A DNA stretch of 64,000 nt, taken from the NCBI RefSeq assembly GCF_000002075.1, contig NW_004797314.1, positions 1,432,736 to 1,496,735 of the forward strand, given 5' to 3'. This DNA is from Aplysia californica. Taxonomy: Eukaryota. Under the pieces are notes generated by a model that was given only the letters and a program-made list of their open reading frames with translations, was not told the DNA's origin and ran no database searches. Below, piece after piece: positions 2,172 through 41,500 of this stretch. The translations under genes were made by a program, and so were the position numbers. Each line of letters begins with the position of its first letter. The stretch's first letter is position 1.

Positions 2172-2548
2172 ATAACCACTTTCTTATTCAAAGCTCAAGT
2201 TAGCAACATCGATGCATCAAAAGAAGTGGCAGCTGCTGCAATATTCACAACCAAATAATGCTCTTGAATAAAAATGAAAGTATAATTATAATAGTGATGT
2301 TTGTTAATTTATTTGATTTCAGACAATTGTATCTGTCTCTTGCCCACAGTGTGGTGTGTATCTCAAAATTACCCCACTTGTGATATCTCTTTTTTGAAAG
2401 TTTGTAATCCCCCCTCATCCCTTCATGAATGTTTTTTTTCTTAAAATATGATAGGCCTTTGTGTATTCCTTTATTGGCTTTATGTTTTGCTGTTGAACTT
2501 GAACTTTATTTTGTTGCTCCACAGAGCTGACAGAGGTATTTGCTGACC

Positions 2549-2771
2549 ATGAAGTACCGAAGCACTCGTGGGGATGTGAAAGGTGTTTCCTTTAAGGATC
2601 TCCTCCTCTCTGGATATGCAAGCGACGGCGGCATGTTGTTGCCTGAGAGTTTTCCTCAAGTGTCCACCGAGTCACTGAGAAGCTGGGCCGGACTCACATA
2701 CGAGCAACTTGCTTATGAGGTGATCTCTTTATTCATCACTGAGGAGGACATTCCAGCAGATGATCTCAAAG
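2549..2771 (+). CDS. THNSL2: THNSL2-like coding exon 1
   Basis: ATG at 2549 (MKYRSTRG...DDLK). An acceptor cag at 2522-2524 implies an upstream UTR exon. Donor gtagat at 2772, phase 1. Confidence 0.9.
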
Positions 2772-5700
2772 GTAGATCTGAACTCAGGTTTTGATTATCA
2801 TCATCATCATTGCCTTTCTCACCCTGCACCATGATATGCCATGGACAAAACTTTCCACCTTTCTCTATCATGGGCAGGCCTCTTGATGTTATTCCATGTC
2901 TTTCCACTTTCCTGTGTATATTAATTTCTGTGATTCCCTCCCAGAATACAATACTTGTTCCCCCGAGCTGAGCTGCTTCTGTCCAGACTGTATCCAGTGT
3001 GTTTTGCTTTTACTCCTAGTATGTGCAGCCTTTATTTCTTCATCTCTTGGACTACTAGAGAACTCTTTCCTACTTCATACAAGGTGCGAACATCCCACAA
3101 TGCAATCCTGAGAGACTTGTTTGACAGAGAAGGTTTCGGGTGAGGAGAGTCTTTCAGGCTCTGTCCACTGTCCTTCATTGTTCCTGCTGGTGTAGAAGCT
3201 CCTACTCCCAAGATCGAAAAATAAAAAGCCGTGTTTGTCCGTGTTTCTGTAATTGACTGTTTTTACTGGGTCGGGTAGTTGACCCTCCGCAAACTGGCAT
3301 TTTTCGGGCGACCAGACCTATGCACCTTTAGTCGCCTCTTACTACACGCAGTATCATGGCAGGTGTATTCTTTGCTTCCCCATAGTAAAACTATGGGGCC
3401 CCCCCACATGCAGAGGTGTCAGGTTTTGAAAGTAATCTTTTATTGTTACCTGGAGATCTCAACCCACCTTTTTTATAATCTTGGAATTGATCCAGTGACC
3501 TCAGAGATGCAAGTTTCGCTCTTGACCTCAGGGCCACTGATGTTAGTAATCTTATATTAGCCTATTACAGTAAAATCTTTTTAGACTGTCCCTTATAATA
3601 CTGCAAATATGACTTACAACAAGTTCAGTAAAATCGTTTCCCTTGACACTGGGCTGTCAGAATTATTTAGCGGAGGCAGAGGACAACATTAGAGCCCCGT
3701 TATACTGCCAGCCCCACTATATAATATTAAATATTACCGATTATGAGATATATATATATATAGAGAGAGATTTTTAGTCAGAACACAATCTACTGTTACT
3801 ATTGTATTTTTGTAAACACTCAGAGCTTGTGATCTTTAATCGGGGTTGAGGGTTATATATATATAAATGTCATATATTATCATTACTAGATCTATAATTA
3901 TTATGGCCTACTATTATTATTGCTATTATTATTATTGTTATTATTATTACCATTAACTCCATGCTCGTCCCAAGGTTGGCAACAATGTTTGACTGTATTT
4001 CTATAATACTAATACCCTCTCACCATTCCTCTGTTATCTTCAGGTGTGCTACAGAGAGCCTTCTCCACGTTCACAGTTCCTGATGTTGTCCCCTTGACTC
4101 ATCTGGCTGATGGTCTGACAGTTGTGGAGTTGTACCATGGCCGGAGCCTTGCCTTCAAGGACTTAGCCATGAGCTGCATGGGCCAGTTCTACAACTATTT
4201 CCTCAGCAAGTCAAAGCAGCACATGAATCTAGTTGTCTGTGAGTACAATTTTAAGGTCATTCTAAGTGGGTAAACTGTAAACCCTTTCACAACGGTATGT
4301 TGAATGTGTTTGATACTAAGGAAAGAAAAAAAAATGTGATAGCATAGTGGAAGTATCAAATTTAGCATCTTTTAGGGATTGAAAGTGTGCCAAAGGGGAG
4401 AAAAATGAGGCTAAGGCTTGGAGTACTGTTATGGTTTATAGTGTGGTATTTTGTATAAGTTTATCCTGAAGCATTTTACAAGATACACAACCTCCATGTG
4501 GTATTTGTTTCAGAATTAAAGCATGCAGAGAACAAGCTCAGAGTTGGGTAAAGACATTTTTTTAATGTCAGTCTTTGTGCATGTATAACATAGATGTACA
4601 GTCCATGCTGGCTTTAAGCACGGTCGTCGGGAGAAAGCTTAAAAGTGTGCTTAAAGCCAAAGCGTGCTTGAGTGCAAAGTAGGCATAATCCCGAGGTTTT
4701 CATACATGTAGAAAATTTCCCGTGCTATTTCCCTTTGTTTGTAAGTAGGCCTATAGCGGTCACGCAAAAGTGTGCACTGTTATTTAGACACCCGCCATGG
4801 TAGTTTTTGTTCCCTTGTTTGTTTTTGTTTTGTGGTCGAATGGGAAATGAAAACTTAATTTAGACGGCCAGTCACCATACAGCACATTAGGTCTACACAC
4901 TGCCTGTGCGTACCACTGCCCTCTGTGCCACTCATACCACCGCCTTCATCCCACCTCGAGCATGATACACAATCAGGATTAATGGATAGCGAGGGTCAAA
5001 GGTGAAATCGCAGTCAGCCTCCCTTTCTCGTCTCCCCGATTCTCTTTGTATTTTTTTTTTGGTCGTGTGTAGCTTTGCCCTAGGCCTAGGCTAGATCCCA
5101 TGTCCGCGCGCATGGCTGTGTGCATCTGCCTTCCTCTCCGCCCGTGTGAGTGTGTGTGTCCATCACTTGCGTTCTTTGTGTTTCTCTTGACACACTCCAC
5201 TGCTGCGGTGTAGACTGTGTTCGAACTTCGATGGGTCATCATGAAAATATTGACTGTCTTGTAAATGAAGCGTGCTTGAAGCCGAAGTTACCATGCTTAA
5301 AGGCGTGTAATTTATATAGCAAAAATTCGGTAAGAGCCGTTTAGCGTGCTTGAGTCCGAAACGTGCTTTAAGCCGGCGTGCTTAAAGCCGGCATGGACTG
5401 TATTTAATTTATTCATTTGTACCTTACCAGCTGGTTGAAGTGAAGAGAAAGNNNNNNNNNNNNNNNNNNNNNNNNNNNNNNNNNNNNNNNNNNNNNNNNN
5501 NNNNNNNNNNNNNNNNNNNNNNNNNNNNNNNNNNNNNNNNNNNNNNNNNNNNNNNNNNNNNNNNNNNNNNNNNNNNNNNNNNNNNNNNNNNNNNNNTGTG
5601 TGTACATTGAGTTAATTTGAGAGAAAATTATAGAATGAGTAAGCGAAAGTATGAGAGTAGATGGAGGCCTATGTGAATGTAAGATTTTTATGGGTGGGGA

Positions 5701-8700
5701 AATATGCATGCACATGATACAGTTTTTAAGAAAGGAAGGAAGAAGAAGACAAACAGGTGGATATGGAAACAAAGAAGGACAGTAAAGTAAAGAAATAGAG
5801 ACATCTTTTCCTTTGTTTTGTAGTTGTTATTCAGCAGCCTTTGTGCAAGTAGCCCAATGCCATCCATTCGAACCTGATCTAAAGGGCACATAACACTATC
5901 ATTTGTATAAAAATTCACTTCCCATTTCCTCCCTTGCATATTCTTTAGCTTACAAAAACACAGTATAAAACAGCCCCCTGTCTAAGACGGCCACTATTCT
6001 CCTCCACAACGGGTGGCCATCTTAGAGTAGACAGTTTCAATTGTACTTATCTTGTTTTATGAACATTCCTGTGGTACAGGCACCTCGGGAGACACTGGTA
6101 GTTCAGCCATTGAGGCAGTGCGAGGCATGAGCCAGGTGGACATTATGGTAATTCTGCCTCGTGATCGCTGCACCGTCATACAGGAGCGACAGATGACCAC
6201 AGTTTTGGACAGCAATGTTCACGTCTACAGAGGTAGATGCTTTTTTATTTGTTATTCTAGCAGAATGTAAGAAGAAACCCTTCATACTATGAGTGGAGTA
6301 GTTGTGTCATAATCGAGTTTGATAAATTTGTATGAATAGATATAAGTGGGAGAACTGTAGAGATGTAGGTTTCATGCAGTTTCCTGGTAAGCAGTGCTAA
6401 AGACAACGCAGTAGTCTTTCTTGCATCTGATTTCATATTGCTTATATTTTCTATTTTGTGTTCAAAATAATGGCTTTTAATATTTTCCAGCCATCCCTAT
6501 GTATAATACAGAATCTTCCAAATTTTAGTTGTGATGCCCATTTGAAGATTTTCTTTTTGTGCAGCAGCACTGTGACTTTGCAGCACAAAATATAATTCTG
6601 CTTGGTAAAAGTCAAAGGCAAATATATCAACTCTTGCAAATAAAAGTTCTAGAGAATTGATTTTTTAAATGGTTTTGAATGTGATTTATTTTTAACTGTG
6701 GATTTTTTTATACAGGCATCTTCTGTCCGGATACAGAATACAAATCAAAAGGGATGGGTGTAAAATTTGATAGCAAAAATGAGCGTCTATAATTGTGTTC
6801 TGTTGTTTCCTTTTCTCTGTTCAGCTGATGGAAGTTCTGATGACATTGACATAGTTGTGAGGAAGCTATTTGCAGACACGTCTTTTGTAAGCACCAATAA
6901 TCTTGGCTCTCCCAGCTCTCTCAACTTTGCTCGGATCCTGATACAGCTTGTGCACTTCTTTTATACCTATTTGAAAGTGAGTTCCCTTAACAATAAAGTG
7001 TTGAAATAATAACCAGCCGTTTTTGTTTCATAATTTACTCTTCAGATAAAAATGTTATGCTTTACAGTATATTTCTGCTTCCAGTACGTTTTACAATTGC
7101 TTTCCTGTATGTAAACGTATACAATAGTTTTTCTTCAATAGGGCCTAATGATCACTTTGAGTAAAATTAAAATCAAGGTAAAATTTGTCTCCTATGTCTG
7201 TTGCTGTTGTGTAGCCAATTATTGAGTCTTGTTTTGTTTTTTTTGTTCAGTTGTGCACTTTTGTAGACAAGCCAGTAATTGAGTATTATTTTTTTATTTT
7301 TTCAGTTGTGCCCTTCAGCAGACAAAGAGGTTGAATTGATCCTCCCGACAGGTGGTGGTGGGAATGTGACAGGTCAGCTCTCACCCTCAATGATACTTGG
7401 GAGTATATCCTCTTCAAAACATGCTTAGTTATTTATAGCTTAACCTGTAAAATTTGTAATAAGCCTGAAATTTGGAAGTTTAAAACAAAATTGCAGTTTC
7501 TCAATCTGGAGCTCCCCAGTTCGAGGTCATCTGGAATTGGCCCACAGGTGACTTTGCCAGTTTGTATTTTTGTCAACTTTTAAAACGATATAGCTTCCTC
7601 CGCTATCCCACATTTCTTCACTGCTTTGCGTTCTCCTTTCCTCCCTTAACTCATTCGCTACGTATTATTTTCGGCTTGTGGACGAATTCTTTTCGGGAGG
7701 GCGAAATGAGATGATGACTAGTGCGCAGTTCGCAGGTCTTTGGGGCCATAAATTCAAATAAATATCAACATATTATATACCAACATTTTCAGTATGGTTT
7801 GTAGAATACACCTGCATTATTTATTTGCGTATTTTTCAACGTTGGTTCCTGTAAGAGGCGATTATGCAACACAATTGTGATTGGATGCGGATAAAATTGG
7901 AAAAATAAAAAAATTTATAATCTCAGGTGAAACTAAAAAAACATGTTTGCACCTAGTCAAATGATACCTCAAAATAACCATAACTGTATATAGAACAGGA
8001 AAATATTGAAAAATGTGCAGTTATTTACATACATTCCATAATATTTGTACATTTGGATCATAACATCCGATATTGGAAAAAAATAATTTTTAAAATAATT
8101 TTGAAAAAGGATCACAAACTGAAAAAAATACGCGTAACTTATATGGAATTATTCAGAATTGCACTTGGAATAAACCTATACATGTCTTGAGTGGTACTTT
8201 TTGATTAATTTCACCCAAAAGTAGTGATTTTGGAGAGATAAAAATATTTTGACTATTTAGATCTAGGCCTAGATCTAGCACTCAAAAATATTGATTTCTC
8301 AATTACAGTGCACCGGCAATTTGCGTCCAATAGTATCAATATTATAAAGAAGAGTCCTACACTTCTTTAGTGAGCAAAATAATTATACATTTTGTTGTGT
8401 AAAAGTACTAAGACTGGTGTCTGGGCTATAAGTTGGGCTTCGCGATAAAACAAAGTCGAATAAACTACGAAATCATGTTTCAAAACTGAATCAAAACTTC
8501 CGATTTTCGGTGGAAACGCTTGACCCGGAAGTCAACATTATATTATGACCTTTATTTTAACATGGATAAGTGGATTGGAATAGAAACCAAGCTAAAATTG
8601 AACGTCGGTTCTCGAGCCGCCGGGGGCGGCTTAACGTACTGACGGCACTTGAGCCGCGCCGCCCTCCACGGCTCGGCGTAGCGAATGAGTTAAACACCCG

Positions 8701-11431
8701 CAAATGCGTTTTAATGTTGAGTGTGATAGTTAATAATAGTAAAATTCAGTGGTCTCTGCCTAAGAATCTGATCATTGAAAGACCCAAAAAAGCATGTTGA
8801 CAGGTGTTTTTCAAGGCTCTTACTGGATCATATGTTTTATGATGGAATATGACCCAATCATGAAACAGAGCCAATCACTACACTACAAAAAGGAAAAGAA
8901 GTAATATTCTGTAAAGACAGCCTTATGTAAGACTATCGAACACTTTGACCTCGTAAGAGGAATGAGTGATCGAACCAATTGAAAACCTTTCAGCGATTGA
9001 TCCTCTACGCAAAGCTCATGTGTGTGCGTAAGAAAAGAGCTGTTAAATTTTATGTCAGAGCTGTCTCTCTTTCTCTTTAGCTGGGACAATCACCAGGAAA
9101 ATGGGTCTTCCTGTGCGGTTTGTGTGTGCAGTGAACAAGAACAACATCTTGTCCCGGATCATGGACGATGGTCAGTGCGAGCTTGGCGAGGTTGAGGGCA
9201 CCCTGGCTCCTGCAATGGACATTCAGGTGAAAAATGAGTTGTCAGTAGGAAGTTTGATTCTCTCCTAAATTAATTGCTACTTTTGTAGTTTAAGATCATG
9301 TCTTTTCACCAACTCCGATTTGTTTTGATTCTGTTATCGTATTCTTTGGTTGACATGCTTTGCCAGATGAATTTGATTTCCTGGATAATTTGTACTGAGA
9401 GTAATAAGAAGAAAAGTTTCTGTTAATTTCTTTGATTTGACAGAGAAAAAGTCTATTCCTCTAGAACCCCCAAAAAATTATATTGTTAAAAATAGAGATT
9501 TTTAAAATGGTGCATGGAAATATATGAAACAGATAAACTTCCCTCCTACGTTAGAAAGATTTGTCATGGGTGTGTTTTTAGACAGCAAGTTAAAGTCTGA
9601 TTGAGAACACTGAATATATGGTCCATCAAGGCTAACTGTTTTCAGATATAGGTCATGCAGCTCCTGAGGGTTAAGTAATTTACCAAAGCTAGCTTGTACG
9701 GACTCGGTCAGGCATCCCCTGATTAAGATCCATAGACATTTTTTTACTTTAACTTGTTTTGTGGCTTCTTCTGTATTTTTAATATTTTATTTTTGCGTGG
9801 GTTAGTTGAAAAGAATTTCATTGCTGACTCTGTTTTTTGTCTTCCAGTTTGCCTACAACCTAGAGCGTGTGTGGTATTTATGCAGTGGTGAGGACGGAGA
9901 TGCCATTAAGAAAATCATGGCCCAAGTGGACAATAACCAAGTCAGGATTCCTGCCAATATTTTGAATGAGGTAAGTTTGACAAAAGGGCTGATTTTTTTT
10001 GCTTTTGAGATAGACTGAAGTGTAGATTTTTGCAGCGGTTGTTACAGCTATACTTTGAAAAAAATCTCAATACTTTTGGAAATAGTTTTGCTCAGAATGA
10101 TGTGCAGCTTTTTTAGTGGTTGTTACAGTATAAATACTTTTAAAAAAATCTCTGCATGTTTATCATTAGTTTTACTCTTTTGTGATTTCTTGTAATGAAG
10201 ACCATATTACTCACTTGTAATTTAGTTATTTCTGATGTAGCTGCAAGGTTTTAACAGATGGAATTTTGAAATGAGATTTCTCAGTAAAGTGTTTTAAATG
10301 AACCAATACATTTTAACTTATTTTGTAGTTTACCTATCAATGATTTCTCTGGTATATTTCGTGTATCCTCTCATCTTTTAGTGAGTGAATTATTAATTGC
10401 CTAAAAAAATAGTTACTTTCTAGTGNNNNNNNNNNNNNNNNNNNNNNNNNNNNNNNNNNNNNNNNNNNNNNNNNNNNNNNNNNNNNNNNNNNNNNNNNNN
10501 NNNNNNNNNNNNNNNNNNNNNNNNNNNNNNNNNNNNNNNNNNNNNNNNNNNNNNNNNNNNNNNNNNNNNNNNNNNNNNNNNNNNNNCCCCCACGCCCGCA
10601 CACACATATAACAAAAACATCCAATGCATTCATGATGTAGATCCAAACACTTTCAATTTCAATGCTAGAAACAGAGCTTCATTTTTGAAAAATGCTTTGA
10701 ATAAATTTCAAAGAGCAGATCTACTTTCATTACTAAGTGAAGTTGTTCAAATTTTGTGTTTGTTTTTTTTCAACCTCAGATGAAATCCTTTGTGAAAGTG
10801 TACACCGTGTCTGGGGATGAAGAAATCAAGACAACGATCAGTCGCTGTTGGCGAGAGAATCAGTACAACATTTGTCCTCACACTGCTGTTGGAGTTTCTT
10901 ACTTTTACCAGAAGCTCTCAGATGGGTATGTCAGATCTTAAAAGCCAAGTAACATTCTATTTCTTTCTGACAGTAATTTTAGAAGTTCACTGGGCTATCC
11001 TTTGTGCTTTCTGTTATGATTTTTTTAAAATTTCATTTTTCAAATTTTTTTTTTCTCAACGAAGCTTCTGTGTTCCTAGAGTAATATAATTTTCCCTTCT
11101 TCTTTTTTTGACACATAACATAAAAAGTATTTTGGCTTTTCCAATTGCTCCAAACTTAACTGTAATCCTCCATCATACAACATCAAGTAAAGATGATGCA
11201 TTGAAACTACAGTCTTGCATGCACAACATAGTGGACATGCGCAAAGCAAACAAAGCAGTAGGTGATCAGAATTTCAGTCACAAGTTTTTTGTTAGGCCCT
11301 ATACATTCTTTGTATTTAAAACATGCGCATAGCTTAAACTATTTGTACATAGTGAAAAAATTGGTATCAGCAAGGGCAGCTCTAATTGAACAAGATGGCA
11401 GATTTCATTTATCAAAACAGTCATGATATGA

Positions 11432-11464
<33 letters not shown>

Positions 11465-12487
11465 GGGGGGGGGCAGGCATGGTAGGCCTTATGAGTGTCC
11501 CTGTGGCTTTATGCACCCTGCATAATTTAGCGAAATTTGATCATTTTTTTCATAATTTCTGATTATTTTCCTTTATCATTCTTTGTTAAAGTTAACAGAA
11601 TCGCATAATTTCACATTTTTGGGCTCAGTTTGCATAATTTAGGAATTTTTCTTGCGTAAAACGACGGAGACAGAATGTTTCTATAAGCTGAGGACAAAAG
11701 TGTAGGCCAAGGACGTGTTCACAAATATATCACTAAAATCAGCAGTAATCTAGCCTGCACTCTTCATTTGCTTGTTGGGAGTCTGTGGTCAGACCAAAGG
11801 CATATAGTTATATTGTATTTTCACCGCATTTGTCAGCGTGCTCCCTTTTGAACAGAGATTATATGCTATGTGACAGCTTGGTGGTGTTTTACAGATAAGA
11901 CTAGGTGAAAGAGTACAATGTTGTTGAGAATTGACCATGCCAGAGCAAAAGAAGTGGAAAGGCTTTTCAGTCGAGGAAAAACAGCAGAGGTGAATAAAAA
12001 ATAAGCATCAGTAACACAAATTTGCAGATCGAAGTGACTGTACTATGAACCCAACCTGCATGTTAATGTCGCAGAGGGGGCATAATTCATGTAAAATTTG
12101 GACTCAATTGTCCATCTCTCTTGTTAGTTATAGCCTGAAATTCAAAGTAGCGAAATTTACATAGAAAAGATTTCGGCATCTTGCAATATGTGTGCTGAGC
12201 TGTATTCTTTCACTTATATTTCTCAAGGATTTTATGATTTTTTAACATATTTTATGTTGTTGTCTATCAGCACCAACAGCAGTTCACCGTCTGCAGTTCT
12301 TGCCACAGCATCCCCACTCAAATTCCCAGAGGCTATCCGGGCATCCGGCGTTCCCGCTCCGACATCAGAGAAAATAGAAACTGTCCTTTCAGCTCCAACC
12401 CGCTTTGTGGATCTGGAAAAATCACAGGACTGGACGGAAATTGTGAAACAGAAAATGATTGAAGCAACCAAGAGCTATGGTTGTTGA
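2549..12487 (+). CDS. THNSL2: Threonine synthase-like 2 (PLP-dependent, fold-type II), complete spliced CDS, 9 coding exons, 473 aa
   Basis: join(2549-2771,4044-4238,6080-6232,6825-6976,7306-7372,9081-9226,9848-9970,10780-10925,12271-12487) = 1422 nt, all GT-AG, phases consistent. Motifs: MKYRSTRG...[23 protein letters not shown] (PLP lysine), [55 protein letters not shown]. No N-terminal kinase-like domain, which favours THNSL2 over THNSL1. Confidence 0.92.
3270..3540 (-). mobile_element. tRNA-derived SINE remnant
   Basis: Minus-strand head CAGTGGCCCTGAGGTCAAGAG...GGATCAATTCC (A/B-box-like); body has GTAAGAGGCGACTAAAGG, reminiscent of a conserved SINE central domain (MetaSINE-type, from memory). 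Confidence 0.5.
4044..4238 (+). CDS. THNSL2: THNSL2-like coding exon 2 (PLP lysine)
   Basis: ttcag|GT GTG...; [17 protein letters not shown]; donor gtgagt. Confidence 0.92.
4597..5402. mobile_element. Non-autonomous Tc1/mariner (pogo/Tigger-like) element
   Basis: TA + 24-bp TIR CAGTCCATGCTGGCTTTAAGCACG ... CGTGCTTAAAGCCGGCATGGACTG + TA (1 mismatch); subterminal GTGCTT repeats; no transposase. Confidence 0.85.
5452..5596. other. Assembly gap
   Basis: Run of N. Confidence 0.99.
5865..6045. mobile_element. Degenerate family A MITE
   Basis: cattcgaacctgatcta ... gggtggccatcttag..acagtttcaattgta matches family A ends and core. Confidence 0.6.
6080..6232 (+). CDS. THNSL2: THNSL2-like coding exon 3
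   Basis: [15 protein letters not shown]...QERQMTTV; acag| and |gtagat. Confidence 0.92.
6825..6976 (+). CDS. THNSL2: THNSL2-like coding exon 4
   Basis: DGSSDDID...[20 protein letters not shown]; ttcag| and |gtgagt. Confidence 0.9.
7306..7372 (+). CDS. THNSL2: THNSL2-like coding exon 5 (not in ORF track)
   Basis: [22 protein letters not shown], the Gly-rich PLP-phosphate loop; phase 0 in, phase 1 out. Confidence 0.88.
7646..8693. mobile_element. TTAA-flanked non-autonomous DNA transposon (piggyBac-like)
   Basis: TTAA-CTCATTCGCTACG ... CGTAGCGAATGAG-TTAA, perfect 13-bp TIR, about 1.05 kb, in a THNSL2 intron. Confidence 0.82.
9081..9226 (+). CDS. THNSL2: THNSL2-like coding exon 6 (not in ORF track)
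   Basis: [23 protein letters not shown]...TLAPAMDIQ; tttag| and |gtgaaa. Confidence 0.9.
9848..9970 (+). CDS. THNSL2: THNSL2-like coding exon 7
   Basis: [11 protein letters not shown]...ILNE; ccag| and |gtaagt. Confidence 0.9.
10426..10586. other. Assembly gap
   Basis: Run of N. Confidence 0.99.
10780..10925 (+). CDS. THNSL2: THNSL2-like coding exon 8
   Basis: MKSFV...[17 protein letters not shown]; tcag| and |gtatgt, phase 2 out. Confidence 0.9.
11430..11473. repeat. (GA)n plus poly-G
   Basis: Directly visible. Confidence 0.93.
12271..12487 (+). CDS. THNSL2: THNSL2-like last coding exon
   Basis: [14 protein letters not shown]...KSYGC, TGA at 12485-12487. Confidence 0.9.
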
Positions 12488-35500: not shown

Positions 35501-38500
35501 TCAAAGTTTTGTTGAAATTAGTGTAAAGATGATGGCATTGTTTTTAAAATGGGTCTTTTTTATTTCAAGGATCTTTTAGAAAAAAATCTGAAATAGCAGT
35601 TGACATCACTTTCAACATTTATTCCATTATTCCAGCTAGGTATTTCTAACCTGTCCTCTTTCTTGGTCATGTTGTTGCTGAAGTTCTCTCAGTCGCTGCT
35701 GCCGTCGTTTCTCCATGTTGGCCTTAAAACGCTGCTGCTGCGCCTCCCTCTGGCGGTCAAACCTCTTGTTCAGATCTGCCTCCATCGCTCGTTGTTTGTC
35801 AATCAAGTCTTTCACTTTCTCCTCTGATACCAAGCCCTGGGTCCCCACGGCCTCCTGTTGACACACCACATAAAATGAATGCTTCAAAGGCTATTTATTC
35901 TTTTGTGTCTATTTGAGTGAAGCTGGAACACTTGGCTAGAGTAAAGAAACTTGACAATATAGGGAGAGAAGAAGTGATGTAGAGAACAGGAAAATACATA
36001 ACAGTTAATATCACATAAATACACTGGAGAAACAATAATGTTAATGTATGTTACATTATGCTGCACCTCCTGCAAAAGTGCATGTGGTTCTGTGCATTAC
36101 AACCAACCCATCATGGGTGTGGATGCTTTTCTTTAAGATTTTGCATCTAAACTGAGTGAAGACATTCTCTTTTGAACTCTTCAAAGTATATCAGCAAATG
36201 AGATAAGGGAGAAATCAGTATGAATCCGATCCTTTATGAACAATTGGTTTAGAAAAAAGACAGGAGAGTTTAATAAAGAACAAAGTAAATTTTGATGACT
36301 TTCTGTATAAATCTGTTAAGGCATTTCCATTTTTCAAACCAGGAATGTGCTGGAGAAGAACCTACCATCTGGTCTGTGAGATTACTGGACAACTTCTGTC
36401 GGAGCTCATTGCTCAGCTGATGGTCAGCATCCATCTCAGCCTGGGACTGTCCGGCCGCCTGCTCAAAGTGGGCAGCGGTCAGCTGTTCCTCTTCTGTCTT
36501 CAGTTTGGACTCTGTGTCATCATGACCTCGGACGGGGGGAGGAAGACCAGCCTCCAGGGCCTGCACAGAAAAATGATGAGATACAAACACTTGATGAGAT
36601 AATGTATCCAAAAATACAGTCACAGGAAAATGATAAGATATAAACAATGGGAGAGATAGTGTATCCAAATAAACATACATAGGTGATTTTTTAAAATTCT
36701 CAATGGAAAATGATGTGATGCAAATATTAAAAGGTGATTGTTAGATTCCCAAAGCTCACACAGAAAAATGATTGAGTATAAACAAATGACTAGCTGTTGT
36801 TAGGGAATAAAATGTTCACTGAGACACAAACAATAGACTAGGTAATGTATGGACATAGATATTCACAAAGGATTTATAATGTTACACAAAAGGATGATGA
36901 GACACAAATAATATGACCGATGATGTGTGAAAATATACTTTTGCTGAATCTTCTAGATGGCAAGTTTGAGGTTGAACTAGACATCAATGCATAATTTCAC
37001 GTATGTCAGCACACAAACACACAGGTTCATACAATCACAAAACACATTCAAAGGGTACCTCCTGAGAGTGCTTGTTCCTCAGTTGTTCTTCCCTATGTCT
37101 TCTCCTCTCTGCCAGCTTCTGCCTCAGATCCTCCATCTGTCTCTCCCGGGATTTGCTTAGCTTCCCAAGGGCAAGGTGCAAGTCTTTCTCATGCTGAGAC
37201 AAAATTTCCTTGATTTCACCATCCTTCAGGTCACCTAGACAATGAAAATTCACAATACAAATGAACACTATCACTAACTATTTGATAAAGGAGAAGGGGA
37301 AGTATAGTTGCATTGTAGTCTACTGCTAATTGGCTTGATAACAGCCATCTTTAGACAGGAGTTGATAAGGAAACAGTATTGAAAATAAATAGGAGCAAAA
37401 CACATCAGAGGGCCCATCAACAACCCACTCTGTGAAAAGAAAGAGAAAGACAAAAAAAAAAGAGGTGGAATAAATATAGGTCACAATGATGCCACAAAAA
37501 CCCCTCACAAACCAAATTTAATTTTTAAGTTTGTTATGATAAACTAAAGGCATTGATGGGCACATTAACCCTTCGAGCCCCATATATTTTTAGCAGCCCT
37601 TGTACCTCCCATCGTCCCAAGAGCATATATTTTCAGTTTCAGGGAATACTGAATTTGCCCATTTTTTCGAAATAAATTAACTAACTAATTAAAATTAAAT
37701 TTTTATAATATTTTTTTCAATTACTTTTAAATATCGTCATATGTTATTATCTAAACCTTATTACACGGATACTCTATTACCTGTTAGAATGCATGCCTCT
37801 TTTTCTGAAATACTGCTGTATTGGCTGGGACTAGGGTTAGGGAGTGCACAAAATGGCTGGGGCTGGAAGGGTTAAAAGAAATTCTACCACAAAAACTAAG
37901 ATCACAACTTCTCTTATAAAGAGCACCAACAGAAGTATGATAAAGCATGTATCATCATCATCACTGCCTTTCTCCCCCAGCATCACGGTTGAGGTCATAA
38001 ACAAACACTTTCTACCATTCCCTATCTTGAGCTAGCCTCTTGACATTATTCCATGTCTTCCCACTTTTCTGTACATCATTCTCTGTGACTCTTCTCCAGT
38101 TCCAGGTGGTCTTCCACTTGATCGCCACAGCCCACATAACAACATCTAAACAAAAATCACATGAAATAGAGATAAATAGACCAAATAACAGTCCAAACTC
38201 AGCAAAGCCTACCTTGCAGTTTGGACTCGAGATCTGCAGCCAGAGCAGCCATGGTCTCTTTCTCCTTGTTGCCGTTGTCCTGTAGCAGGTTCTCCATGGC
38301 ATCACGCTCCTCCCTGGACAACTCCTGTTCTAGCTGTATGCGCTCTCCATTCTGTCTGCCTAGCAACTCACCATTAGCACCAGAGGCCTGAGATAACAGA
38401 TATTAGCAAAAGGTCAATTAAAAGTAATTGACGTTTTTGACGTCCAATTATTGTAGGAAACCAAAGAAACAAAAAATGTAAGGCCATCTTTCAATCTTTG

Positions 38501-41500
38501 CATCAATTCAGTCTCTGCAGGCCTACTCAGCCAAAGAAACAACATTTATATAAATTTATAGGTTTACTATTTACGCCCTTTTATTCTCTCCATCCGTGGA
38601 CCAGAGCAAAAGGCTGAGCCTCACAATCTTGCATGACAATAGTCTTAATGTCCCTGAAAGTGGAAGTTATCTGCAATTAACATCTGCACTGTTACTTTTG
38701 CACACTGCTGATGTTCTGTTAACTTATTAACCTACTCCTCCTCGATGTTTCCTTAATCTTGAAATTCTTGAACCTGGTAAGCCCCAGGTGTGCCAACCTT
38801 ACAGAAATAGCTCTGAGCTGGGTTACCGGCCCTACAGAATTCCAAGAAATATGCTCCACACCCGTTAACCAGCCTTATGGTATACCAAGAATTACACCTC
38901 AGGTTGGCTTACAATCCGAAAAGGTTCCGCCCAAACCCAATATTTAAGGGAAAACTTTCTCACCTGCATGTGTGCAGCTCCGCCGGTGATGTTGACATTC
39001 GTCACTGTGCTTGCCCCAGCAGCCTTCCCACGCTGGAGCTGTTCCCACATTTCTGGGCTGAGCGGGATGTTGCCAGAGTTGAGTTTATCCAGCAGGATTT
39101 TCAGTGCTGCCATAAGGTCATCCTCACGGCCTTGACTTGTGCCTGGGATTTTCATTACAATTTTAAGGGTCTGACACATGACGCATATATACCTTTTTAC
39201 TGGACATTCAGAACATTGTTGTGGGATTTTTGTAAAATAAGGAGTTCTTGTCTCTTGCAAAAAGTTGGCCATAGGGCAAAAATCATTCAAAAGTACATGT
39301 TTCTCCCAAAACCTAATAGTGTAACCACCCCCTAGAAAAAGTCCTTCAACTGATAACCTCAGTTTTCAGGATATTTGTTCACTTCAAATTGCACATATCA
39401 ATGAAAGTTTACTTTTGTCAAAGTAATTACAAACAATGAAAATGTACTTGAGGATAGTAGCTGAGATTACCCTCCCCTGAGCATTGTGCAAATGTGGCAA
39501 AAAATGTCTTTGACTGCCACATCCATAAATGCACTATATACACTTTGGGGTACAGTGTCTTCTAACATCTTTTATCTCAGACCTTTGGTGCTAATGGTGA
39601 GCTGCTAGGTCGGCAGAAAGGAGAGCGCATACAGCTGTAGCAAGAGTTATCCCTGGAGGAGCAAGATTTCTAAGTCTAAAACTCACCGGCAAATTTGCCC
39701 TTAGTTCCGCCCTCTCCCATCGTGAGACTGGCTCCGACAATTGTGGCACCAGCAGCAGCTGCCGCAGCGCCTTGCAGACCGTCCTTCTCAATGGCTGCTT
39801 GGCGGGCTTCAAGAGCAGCCATTTTCTCTGGGTCAAGGTCATTGAGCAGTTTTTTTAGTTCTTCATTTTGCTGACAGATGCGGTTGTAGAATGACTCGAG
39901 GTCTTCTTGTTGACGGGCCAACTGAGAGGCCAGATGTAGATTCTGATCTTCCAACTTGTCATACAGAACCCGAACATTGAAGTCATCCAGATCGTCAGCA
40001 GATTTACCTGTTATAGAAGCATTTACATATTATCAGGTCACAGAAAGATGACAGCCAATAGACAAGCTGAGCATAAACTGCACTATCCAGAAAAAAACCT
40101 AACTCTTTATATTAGACATTACTTAACAAAAAATGTCCAGCAGTTTAGCAGCATTTTCAGCATTTTTTAACAAGCCTAAATTAAGCTCATGACTTTCACC
40201 TTTGTGAAAACAACTTTTGAAGCTAACAAGCATCATTCTCAACACTTGCCCTGGGTACAGCTTTCATACTCTTCACTGTGTCATAAATAGTACAGTGAGA
40301 GGCTACATTCCCATTGCTACTTGATTACCAGCGGACTTCAAATTTACACATGAGCTTGCTTTTTTCAGATACCAGGGATCATAACAGGTGGAATATGCGT
40401 TTATTCATTTATCTGATAAAAGCAGAACTAGTGCTGACAAAGGTTCCAAAGTAAAGATACTATGCTGGTATAGAATTGTTAAAATAACAGTAAATACAGA
40501 GTACATAGCACAGAGCAAGGCCTACCTTTATCAGCCAGAATGGGATCAGCCTCAGCTCCCTCCACTCCTGGTCTGGGGCCAAGAGCATCAGTTTTACTGA
40601 AGATCAAATACACAGTTATTTTGTAACGAGAAAGCCTGTCAAAAGAGAAGGAGCTTGACTGAAAATAAAGAACAGCCTTGGACAAATTTATAGAATTCTG
40701 ATGGGACCTGAAGTATTGTCTGATTCTTCTCAGGCTATCTTTGTTTCTTTGTTTCTAATCTACACACTCTTTCTCTTTATTTTAATCCTCATTTTCTGAA
40801 TTCTCCCCCCCACCCCCACAATTTTAGTAAAAAGACAAAACAACAGAAGACAACAACACTAACTGTGTAACTGATGTTATGAACACATTCTGCTTCATTT
40901 CATTGCGTTCATGCATAAGAAGTTTGTATAAAAACATGTAATCACCTGATATATCTCTCTGGCCAGTTATCTGGATCATAACGTAGGTACGATGGTACAG
41001 GTGGCGGCAGACCAAGTTTCCTGTACTGTGGCTTCCAGTGTTTGACTGGATAGATTACTGAGTCATGAGGACGCCAGACAATGACTGCCACCACAAGAAG
41101 CAGTACCAAGGCAGCGAAGAAGGCAATCAAACCTGTGTAGTGAGGGAAACAAATCTTTCATAAATCAATCTGAAAGTTTCAATAGGACAAGTCATAAAAA
41201 AGATAAAAAGTGTTATAAACGACCTATCACACCCCCTTTCCATGCAAATTGTAAGATCATGCAACGGCAGATATGTACCTCTATAACCAAAGAAAGAAAG
41301 GTATAAAGAACTTTTTTAACCATCTACCATAAGGCTATTGTCAGAATAAGCATCAATGTGTATTGCTCTTTCGAGTATGTATCTATATAACTCTATAGGT
41401 TTTGTAATTAAATTCCTGCATGTGGTTGAATGATGCATCTGATATGATATGTACATTTTGTCAGCTTTACTTTTCTTTACATATTAAATTTTAATTAGAG

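What the first reader, a model, noticed from the sequence alone, without database searches (positions are those of the whole stretch)
38301..39667. Antisense pseudo-exon positioned to mask a splice acceptor and skip two exons in frame
Seen: 39562-39667 is an ungapped inverted copy (88/106, hand count) of the acceptor plus first 87 nt of exon v27 (38301-38406). It begins about 19 nt into the intron after v25. Many differences are synonymous (TTG/CTG, GGC/GGT, AGA/CGG, CTA/CTG, CAG/CAA, TTG/TTA), and the copy has a TAG. In the pre-mRNA the two arms could pair, looping out v26 and hiding the v27 acceptor. v26+v27 = 179+175 = 354 nt, and both the v25 end and v28 start are phase 1, so skipping removes exactly 118 aa in frame. 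Inference: a structure-driven splicing switch, an ADAR editing-complementary sequence for v27, or a neutral relic of an old inversion-duplication.
Basis: partly seen in the sequence, partly recalled or inferred. Interest (0 to 1): 0.7.

Follow-up and report, generated by a model that had tools for sequence, protein, structure and literature searches.

The report
Inverted exon scrap, edited in antisense
An intron of a giant membrane-protein gene in a mollusc holds a backwards 106-base copy of a nearby exon's start; it is likely old DNA-repair debris, assembled transcripts keep both neighbouring exons, and one rare RNA carrying the copy shows likely A-to-I editing on the strand opposite to the gene.

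Summary
The inverted copy is real: 88/106, ungapped, found nowhere else in the assembly, and the exon arithmetic is right. The predicted duplex is strong (-163 kcal/mol). The splicing-switch and editing-guide readings get no support. Transcript contigs from two studies join v25-v26-v27-v28 with v27 unedited. In-frame pairs are common in this gene (13 of 21). G·U-tolerated changes show no sense-strand bias. The copy has lost conserved residues, and editing the exon's three A:C sites would be silent. Best reading: a repair or template-switch duplication decaying in the intron, as with human ACSBG2. This scan has noted look-alikes in other genomes. One surprise: a single low-depth RNA contig over the copy has 5 of 5 differences A>G on the + strand, all inside the copy and absent from the same sample's DNA contig. 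That points to ADAR editing of an antisense RNA, so double-stranded RNA likely does form here occasionally. Two hints stay open: a borderline excess of silent differences (P 0.02-0.10) and homology that starts at the branch point. Contigs drop rare isoforms and the raw-read runs had no exon reads, so minor skipping is untested.

The parts
39562..39667 (+). Inverted copy of the v27 branch-point/polypyrimidine/AG (19 nt) plus first 87 nt of v27; antisense within host intron 25; carries an in-frame TAG
38301..38406 (-). Source arm: last 19 nt of intron 26 and first 87 nt of exon v27
39687..40007 (-). Exon v25 (321 nt, phase 1-1), conserved juxtamembrane cytoplasmic segment
38964..39142 (-). Exon v26 (179 nt, phase 1-0), lies in the loop between the arms
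38213..38387 (-). Exon v27 (175 nt, phase 0-1), coiled-coil-like, conserved in molluscs and an annelid
37059..37234 (-). Exon v28 (176 nt, phase 1-0)
39482..39684 (+). Unspliced 203-nt contig of run X4 (depth 2.4) with A>G on + at 39581, 39607, 39618, 39619, 39631; likely ADAR-edited antisense RNA
2531..12487 (+). Convergent threonine-synthase-like gene (approximate span); one possible source of + strand read-through, not shown

Best explanation
The 106-nt segment is an inverted copy of the v27 acceptor and exon start lying in intron 25, most likely made by a one-off repair or template-switch event and now decaying without a selected role, while likely still able to pair with its source and attract occasional ADAR editing. 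Shown: the copy, its uniqueness in the assembly, its stop codon and loss of conserved residues, and inclusion of v26 and v27 in the assembled mRNA. Predicted: a 94-bp duplex in the pre-mRNA and a 90-bp duplex in any antisense RNA spanning both arms. Inferred from one contig: a rare + strand (antisense) transcript runs through the locus, folds arm to arm and is edited. In the sense pre-mRNA, spliceosome commitment at v26 and v27 presumably wins most of the time (inference).
For: (1) X4 and X8, two studies, each give one unbroken contig v25-v26-v27-v28 at depth about 74 with 0 differences in v27. No 25-28, 26-28 or back-splice joint is among the 15 of 16 joints shown. (2) The copy changes N to K and E to stop. 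N is kept in 5 of 7 and E in 6 of 7 aligned homologues, and both are kept in 5 of 5 further v27-like fragments. (3) Of 18 differences, 6 are G·U-tolerated on the sense strand and 5 on the antisense strand, as 11 transitions give with no selection for pairing. (4) Run X18 has 39629 A>T in the copy, which breaks a pair. (5) At 38331 the exon is polymorphic in DNA run X1 and one allele equals the copy's base, so the exon's own drift explains at least one silent difference. (6) 13 of 21 adjacent exon pairs are frame-neutral. (7) Local inverted duplicates are common here: 31 pairs in 723 kb of called sequence, 9 of them locally unique, at 5 loci including this one. (8) Precedent: human ACSBG2 exon 7 was copied inverted into its own intron, is transcribed antisense, and has Ka/Ks not different from 1 (PMC2671141, passages). 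(9) Editing: 5 of 5 differences are A>G. Chance as a haplotype is about 3e-4 for the number and 1e-4 to 5e-4 for the single type. All 5 lie in the copy (P 0.024, or 0.062 on callable sites), and 39581 faces a C in the + strand hairpin. The genome has ADAR-type deaminase domains.
Against: (1) Silent differences are in borderline excess over a neutral copy with a constrained exon: 10 of 16, P 0.016-0.103 depending on kappa and omega. (2) Homology begins exactly at a branch-point-like CTAAY (motif recalled), and the copy's acceptor scores as well as the real one, 5.0 versus 4.9 on a home-made score. Both would fit a past spliced, coding life. (3) The duplex dominates the predicted fold, with mean pair probability 0.86, so a real effect on splicing is physically plausible. 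Near-perfect human inverted duplications do cause skipping (PMC6549551, PMC8756506, passages). (4) Contigs drop rare isoforms, one joint row was hidden, and the 3 raw-read runs had no reads on these exons. (5) The editing rests on one contig of depth 2.4, which the tool flags as possibly erroneous, from a run whose RNA status is a guess. The matched DNA contig shows one haplotype only. (6) No relative's genome could be examined, and no repair hallmarks can be read without the empty site.
Confidence: 0.7

Rival explanations
1. Structure-driven splicing switch: the duplex loops out v26 and buries the v27 branch point and acceptor, giving a regulated in-frame isoform lacking 118 aa, or a v27-only skip that feeds nonsense-mediated decay.
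For: Duplex -163 kcal/mol, and it lowers the regional fold by about 120 kcal/mol. The geometry covers the branch point, AG and 87 exon nt, and the double skip is in frame. Human cases show skipping from inverted duplications.
Against: Only the full-inclusion path is assembled in 2 of 2 well-covered RNA-like runs. Frame neutrality holds for 13 of 21 pairs. There is no G·U bias, and a pair-breaking variant exists. v26 and v27 sequence aligns in 6 full homologues from molluscs, an annelid and unnamed sources.
Confidence: 0.1
2. Editing-complementary sequence for v27, like the upstream-intron ECS of BLCAP, guiding ADAR to recode v27 or to destroy its acceptor adenosine.
For: The position is upstream and intronic, as for BLCAP (PMC10404624, passages). 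ADAR-type changes are seen at this locus, and ADAR-type domains are in the genome.
Against: The observed changes are on the wrong strand and the wrong arm. v27 has 0 differences in the X4 and X8 mRNA contigs. The one T>C in v27 (38331) is also in DNA run X1. The three A:C sites in the exon are all silent.
Confidence: 0.07
3. Remnant of a once-working duplicate, for example a tandem v26+v27 module (frame-neutral, so tolerated) or an inverted paralogue, later inverted and truncated; or an exon still used by an antisense non-coding transcript.
For: Silent excess with P 0.016-0.103. Homology starts at the branch point, and the acceptor is intact on +. A + strand RNA seems to exist. The ACSBG2 inverted exon is used in an antisense fusion transcript.
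Against: No v26 or intron-26 remnant in intron 25 (P 0.23 and 0.25; anchored extension P 0.18-0.86). No other copy in the assembly. The edited contig is unspliced at the copied acceptor.
Confidence: 0.13

Closest known systems
Repair-mediated duplications by capture of proximal DNA (Pace et al. 2009, PMC2671141), especially ACSBG2 exon 7
   Same: [quoted passage not shown]
   Different: Invertebrate genome; partial exon; 83% rather than about 94% identity; breakpoint hallmarks cannot be read without the empty site; here the antisense RNA appears edited and unspliced.
Template-switch four-point model (Loytynoja and Goldman 2017, PMC5453318)
   Same: A reverse-complement fragment copied from nearby creates a new inverted repeat able to form RNA structure without selection.
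   Different: That model is for short-range events; here the arms are 1155 nt apart and the ancestral state is unknown.
Pathogenic intragenic inverted duplications of MANBA (PMC6549551) and CHM (PMC8756506)
   Same: An inverted exon-containing copy in the pre-mRNA is predicted to form a hairpin over an exon and its splice sites.
   Different: Those are new, kilobase-long, fully complementary and cause full skipping. This one is 106 nt with 12 mismatches and 6 G·U pairs, is present in every sample that covers it, and inclusion is the assembled form.
Intronic editing-complementary sequences (BLCAP upstream-intron ECS; GluA2 Q/R) (PMC10404624)
   Same: Exon-intron duplex with the complement in the upstream intron.
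   Different: No recoding-competent A:C site, no exon editing seen, no evidence of conservation; the editing seen is on the antisense strand.
Promiscuous ADAR editing of repeat-derived and sense-antisense dsRNA across metazoans (PMC9989829)
   Same: Clustered A-to-G in an inverted-repeat arm; 4 of 5 sites lack the disfavoured 5' G.
   Different: The repeat is a unique exon fragment, not a transposon; only one low-depth contig.

Membership tests
Repair-mediated / template-switch local duplication | Short copy with its donor within a few kb on the same chromosome | tested here: met
   106 nt, 1155 nt between arms, only 2 matches in the assembly
Repair-mediated / template-switch local duplication | DNA-level copy, not retrotransposed mRNA (keeps intron sequence, no poly-A tail) | tested here: met
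   Includes 19 nt of intron with the AG; no A/T tract at either end
Repair-mediated / template-switch local duplication | Microhomology, filler or small deletion at the breakpoints against the empty site | not testable with these tools
   No relative's genome; all samples that cover the site carry the copy
Repair-mediated / template-switch local duplication | Neutral decay of the copy | tested here: inconclusive
   Conserved residues lost, no G·U bias, a pair-breaking variant, but borderline silent excess and no outgroup DNA
RNA-structure splicing switch | Stable long-range duplex covering a splice site | tested here: met
   Predicted only: -163 kcal/mol, 94 register pairs in the MFE
RNA-structure splicing switch | Alternative isoform exists | tested here: inconclusive
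   Only inclusion assembled in X4 and X8; contigs drop rare forms; raw-read runs had no exon reads
RNA-structure splicing switch | Conserved complementarity with compensatory changes | not testable with these tools
   No related genome; run X13, labelled another organism, is 99% or more identical in exons and has no cover on the copy
Editing-complementary sequence for a coding site | A-to-I editing in the paired exon of the sense mRNA | tested here: not met
   0 differences in v27 in X4 and X8 contigs (majority level only); 38331 is genomic
Editing-complementary sequence for a coding site | Recoding-competent adenosine at an A:C mismatch | tested here: not met
   All 3 A:C sites are silent third positions
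ADAR-edited inverted-repeat dsRNA | Clustered A-to-G in RNA, absent from matched DNA, within the paired arm | tested here: inconclusive
   5 of 5 A>G in the copy in one X4 contig, not in X1 of the same sample; depth 2.4, one haplotype shown in DNA, not seen in X8 or X13

The most novel reading that the evidence does not exclude
The copy is a working two-faced element. An antisense transcript folds on it and is ADAR-edited, and in the sense pre-mRNA the duplex sometimes removes v26+v27 in frame or hides the cryptic donor 16 nt into v27. The exon's silent sites have meanwhile been driven away from the copy to loosen the duplex, which would be a visible case of selection on synonymous sites to escape or tune a self-made splice-masking hairpin.
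Probability: 0.12. Interest if true: 0.6.

Novelty: new member of a known kind. Interest (0 to 1): 0.27.

Why it matters
If the best reading holds, this is a small natural test showing that an 83%-matched, 106-bp duplex over a branch point and acceptor can persist without blocking the exon, unlike the perfect kilobase duplications in human disease. It also shows how unique-sequence repair scars can seed ADAR substrates. If the novel case holds, it would catch a splicing or editing element being born from a repair scar, with the exon's silent sites responding. That is testable with a minigene and one related genome.

Tried and rejected
Raw poly(A) runs X21-X23: 0 of 3 had reads on exons v23-v28, so no test of skipping or editing. 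No listed holder was on record as RNA; 8 of 24 listed runs were laid. X18 covers introns continuously and is probably DNA. X13 is too close and too shallow to be an outgroup. No remnant of v26, intron 26 or the rest of v27 was found in intron 25. The lowest of 8 local tests was P 0.04 for intron 25 against intron 27, a gappy alignment I treat as chance. No second gene copy was found. The tblastn of six homologues over 464 kb showed only minus-strand hits in the part of the output I could see; the middle was cut. The automatic exon chain had 3 wrong cores and gave 14 of 26 frame-neutral pairs; it was replaced by a 22-exon chain checked for AG/GT and an open frame, giving 13 of 21. One search used a wrong v28 start (37238), corrected to 37234. 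Exon-copy chimera was rejected as the source of the five A>G changes: only 1 of 5 moves toward the exon base. A paper search for inverted exon / pseudoexon / antisense copy / ADAR / editing complementary sequence, at least 3 terms, returned 0 papers. The read-through search returned 5 papers, seen as listings only. No structure or complex prediction was run, as it does not bear on the question. No supplements were opened.
Full report
Observation. The pair is as described: 38301-38406 on the minus strand matches 39562-39667 on the plus strand at 88 of 106 bases without gaps. It is far beyond chance (E 1.3e-24 in the window; 7.9e-23 in the genome). The exon and the copy are the only 2 matches in the 927-Mb assembly by DNA and by protein. 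Gapped and anchored alignments do not extend it. It comprises 19 intron bases, starting at a branch-point-like CTAAY (motif recalled), the AG, and 87 of the 175 bases of v27. It lies 19 bases downstream of the v25 donor, antisense to the host pre-mRNA.

Host gene. The minus-strand gene encodes a very large membrane protein. Its outer part has cysteine-rich repeats with weak Ephrin_rec_like hits below the curated cut-off, and it has a long coiled-coil-like tail. Relatives include fish si:ch211-286b4.4-named proteins and a Mya arenaria protein. Over v25-v28 the best-scoring of 11 homologues compared is from the gastropod Elysia chlorotica. The gene continues at least 80 kb beyond the window. v26 and v27 align in 6 of those homologues along their length and weakly in one fish protein. 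A 22-exon chain from 43108 to 21844 has AG/GT ends and an open 1487-aa frame. Skipping v26+v27 leaves 1369 aa; skipping either alone truncates.

Could it pair? Yes, in prediction. The arms give -163 kcal/mol as a duplex (perfect match -225). In a 1611-nt pre-mRNA fold, 94 register pairs are in the minimum-energy structure with mean probability 0.86, and forbidding the copy costs about 120 kcal/mol. The plus strand folds likewise, with 90 pairs. Of the 18 differences, 6 are G·U-compatible on the sense strand and 5 on the antisense strand, which is what 11 transitions give with no selection for pairing in the pre-mRNA.

RNA evidence. I laid 8 of 24 listed runs. Three raw poly(A) runs had no reads on these exons and test nothing. 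Of three RNA-like contig runs, X4 and X8 (two studies) each give a single unbroken contig through v25, v26, v27 and v28 at depth about 74, with canonical joints and no difference in v27. X13 shows only the v26-v27 joint at depth 2.5. No skipping or back-splice joint is among the 15 of 16 joints shown. Contigs drop rare variants, so this shows inclusion is the main form, not the only one. The one T>C in v27 (38331) is in the DNA-like run X1 as well; it is a silent polymorphism whose other allele equals the copy's base. The three exon adenosines facing C in the sense duplex are all silent if edited.

An unexpected signal. Run X4 has one 203-nt unspliced contig at 39482-39684, depth 2.4. Its 5 differences are all A>G on the plus strand and all inside the copy; the DNA-like contig of the same sample lacks them. 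As a haplotype, five changes in 203 nt have P about 3e-4 at the local diversity of 0.28%, and five of one transition type 1e-4 to 5e-4. Only 1 of 5 moves toward the exon base, so it is not an exon-copy chimera. Editing of the host pre-mRNA would read T>C on plus, so the edited molecule would be antisense to the gene. The copy holds 29 of the contig's 59 adenosines, so all five falling inside has P 0.024 (0.062 on callable sites). The only site with a disfavoured 5' G (39581) faces a C in the plus-strand hairpin (neighbour preference from PMC9989829, passages; A:C preference recalled). This weakly favours an arm-to-arm hairpin over pairing with the sense transcript. ADAR-type deaminase domains are in the genome. 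A convergent threonine-synthase-like gene ends about 26 kb upstream on plus, and its read-through is one possible source, not shown. Limits: one contig, possibly one or two molecules; RNA status is a guess; the DNA contig shows one haplotype; X8 and X13 show no such contig.

Evolution of the copy. It turns a conserved N into K and a conserved E into a stop. N is kept in 5 of 7 and E in 6 of 7 homologues aligned, and both are kept in 5 of 5 further fragments (5 of 6 hits fetched; a 29% coiled-coil hit was left out). Run X18 carries a pair-breaking A>T at 39629. The copy is present in the window and in X1, X18 and X4. A silent excess is expected when a neutral copy is compared with a constrained exon. 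The observed 10 of 16 (silent paths maximised) exceeds even that at P 0.016-0.103 across the models tried. With homology starting at the branch point, this leaves room for a once-coding duplicate such as a frame-neutral v26+v27 tandem module. However, no v26 or intron-26 remnant was found (P 0.23, 0.25). It also leaves room for faster silent change in the exon to loosen the duplex. Neither can be settled without a related genome, and none is held.

Background. In 864 kb around the window (723 kb called), 31 inverted pairs of at least 60 nt and 70% identity lie within 5 kb of each other. Nine are locally unique, at 5 loci including this one. The other four showed no evident exon by eye, and two look like low-copy repeats. 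Local inverted copies are thus ordinary here, about one per 145 kb, and an exon-dense gene of more than 100 kb is a large target.

Comparison. The closest match is the repair-mediated duplication class, including ACSBG2 exon 7, inverted in its own intron and transcribed antisense without constraint (PMC2671141, passages). Short template switches make such repeats without selection (PMC5453318, passages). BLCAP has an upstream-intron ECS (PMC10404624, passages), but two defining ECS features were not met here. A search for papers joining at least three of inverted exon, pseudoexon, antisense copy, ADAR and editing complementary sequence returned none; other searches were read as listings only. 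This scan's notes list eight similar cases in other genomes, mostly judged debris; these are unchecked AI notes, used as leads only. Nothing was noted for this place.

Verdict. A real, old inverted exon scrap, most likely without a selected role (0.70), that probably forms double-stranded RNA now and then. Splicing switch 0.10, editing guide for v27 0.07, once-working or antisense-used exon 0.13. New member of a known kind; interest 0.27.

Noticed in passing
window 38372/38371 (minus strand), 16 nt into v27: A consensus-like cryptic donor (ATG|GTGAGT) scores above the true v27 donor on a home-made score (5.8 vs 4.5); using it would delete 53 aa in frame. It lies inside the predicted duplex. 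Not seen in contigs.
   Followed up: partly
window about 17100 to beyond 64000, minus strand: Giant uncharacterised cysteine-repeat membrane protein with a coiled-coil-like tail, conserved in molluscs, an annelid, fish, reptiles and birds; its mRNA contig in X8 is 26.6 kb.
   Followed up: partly
window 2531-12487, plus strand: Threonine-synthase-like gene convergent with the giant gene.
   Followed up: partly
window 37565-37875: About 310-nt element with 31-nt terminal inverted repeats in intron 27, very high copy in DNA and abundant in poly(A) reads from other loci; MITE-like.
   Followed up: no
window about 37950-38150: High-copy repeat whose minus-strand translation resembles the C-terminus of an RTE-type retrotransposon reverse transcriptase (resemblance recalled, not tested); similar sequence at 2796-2936.
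   Followed up: no
window 36564-36941: Degenerate 57-nt tandem repeats in the intron just upstream of the exon that starts at 36560.
   Followed up: no
G000:C44 about 15.5 kb and 241 kb before the window start: Other locally unique inverted duplicates: 93 nt at 82% (365 nt apart) and 129 nt at 98% (163 nt apart).
   Followed up: partly
window 38331, 37098, 38757: Within-species variants: silent exon SNP at 38331, SNP in v28 at 37098, 7-nt insertion in intron 26.
   Followed up: partly
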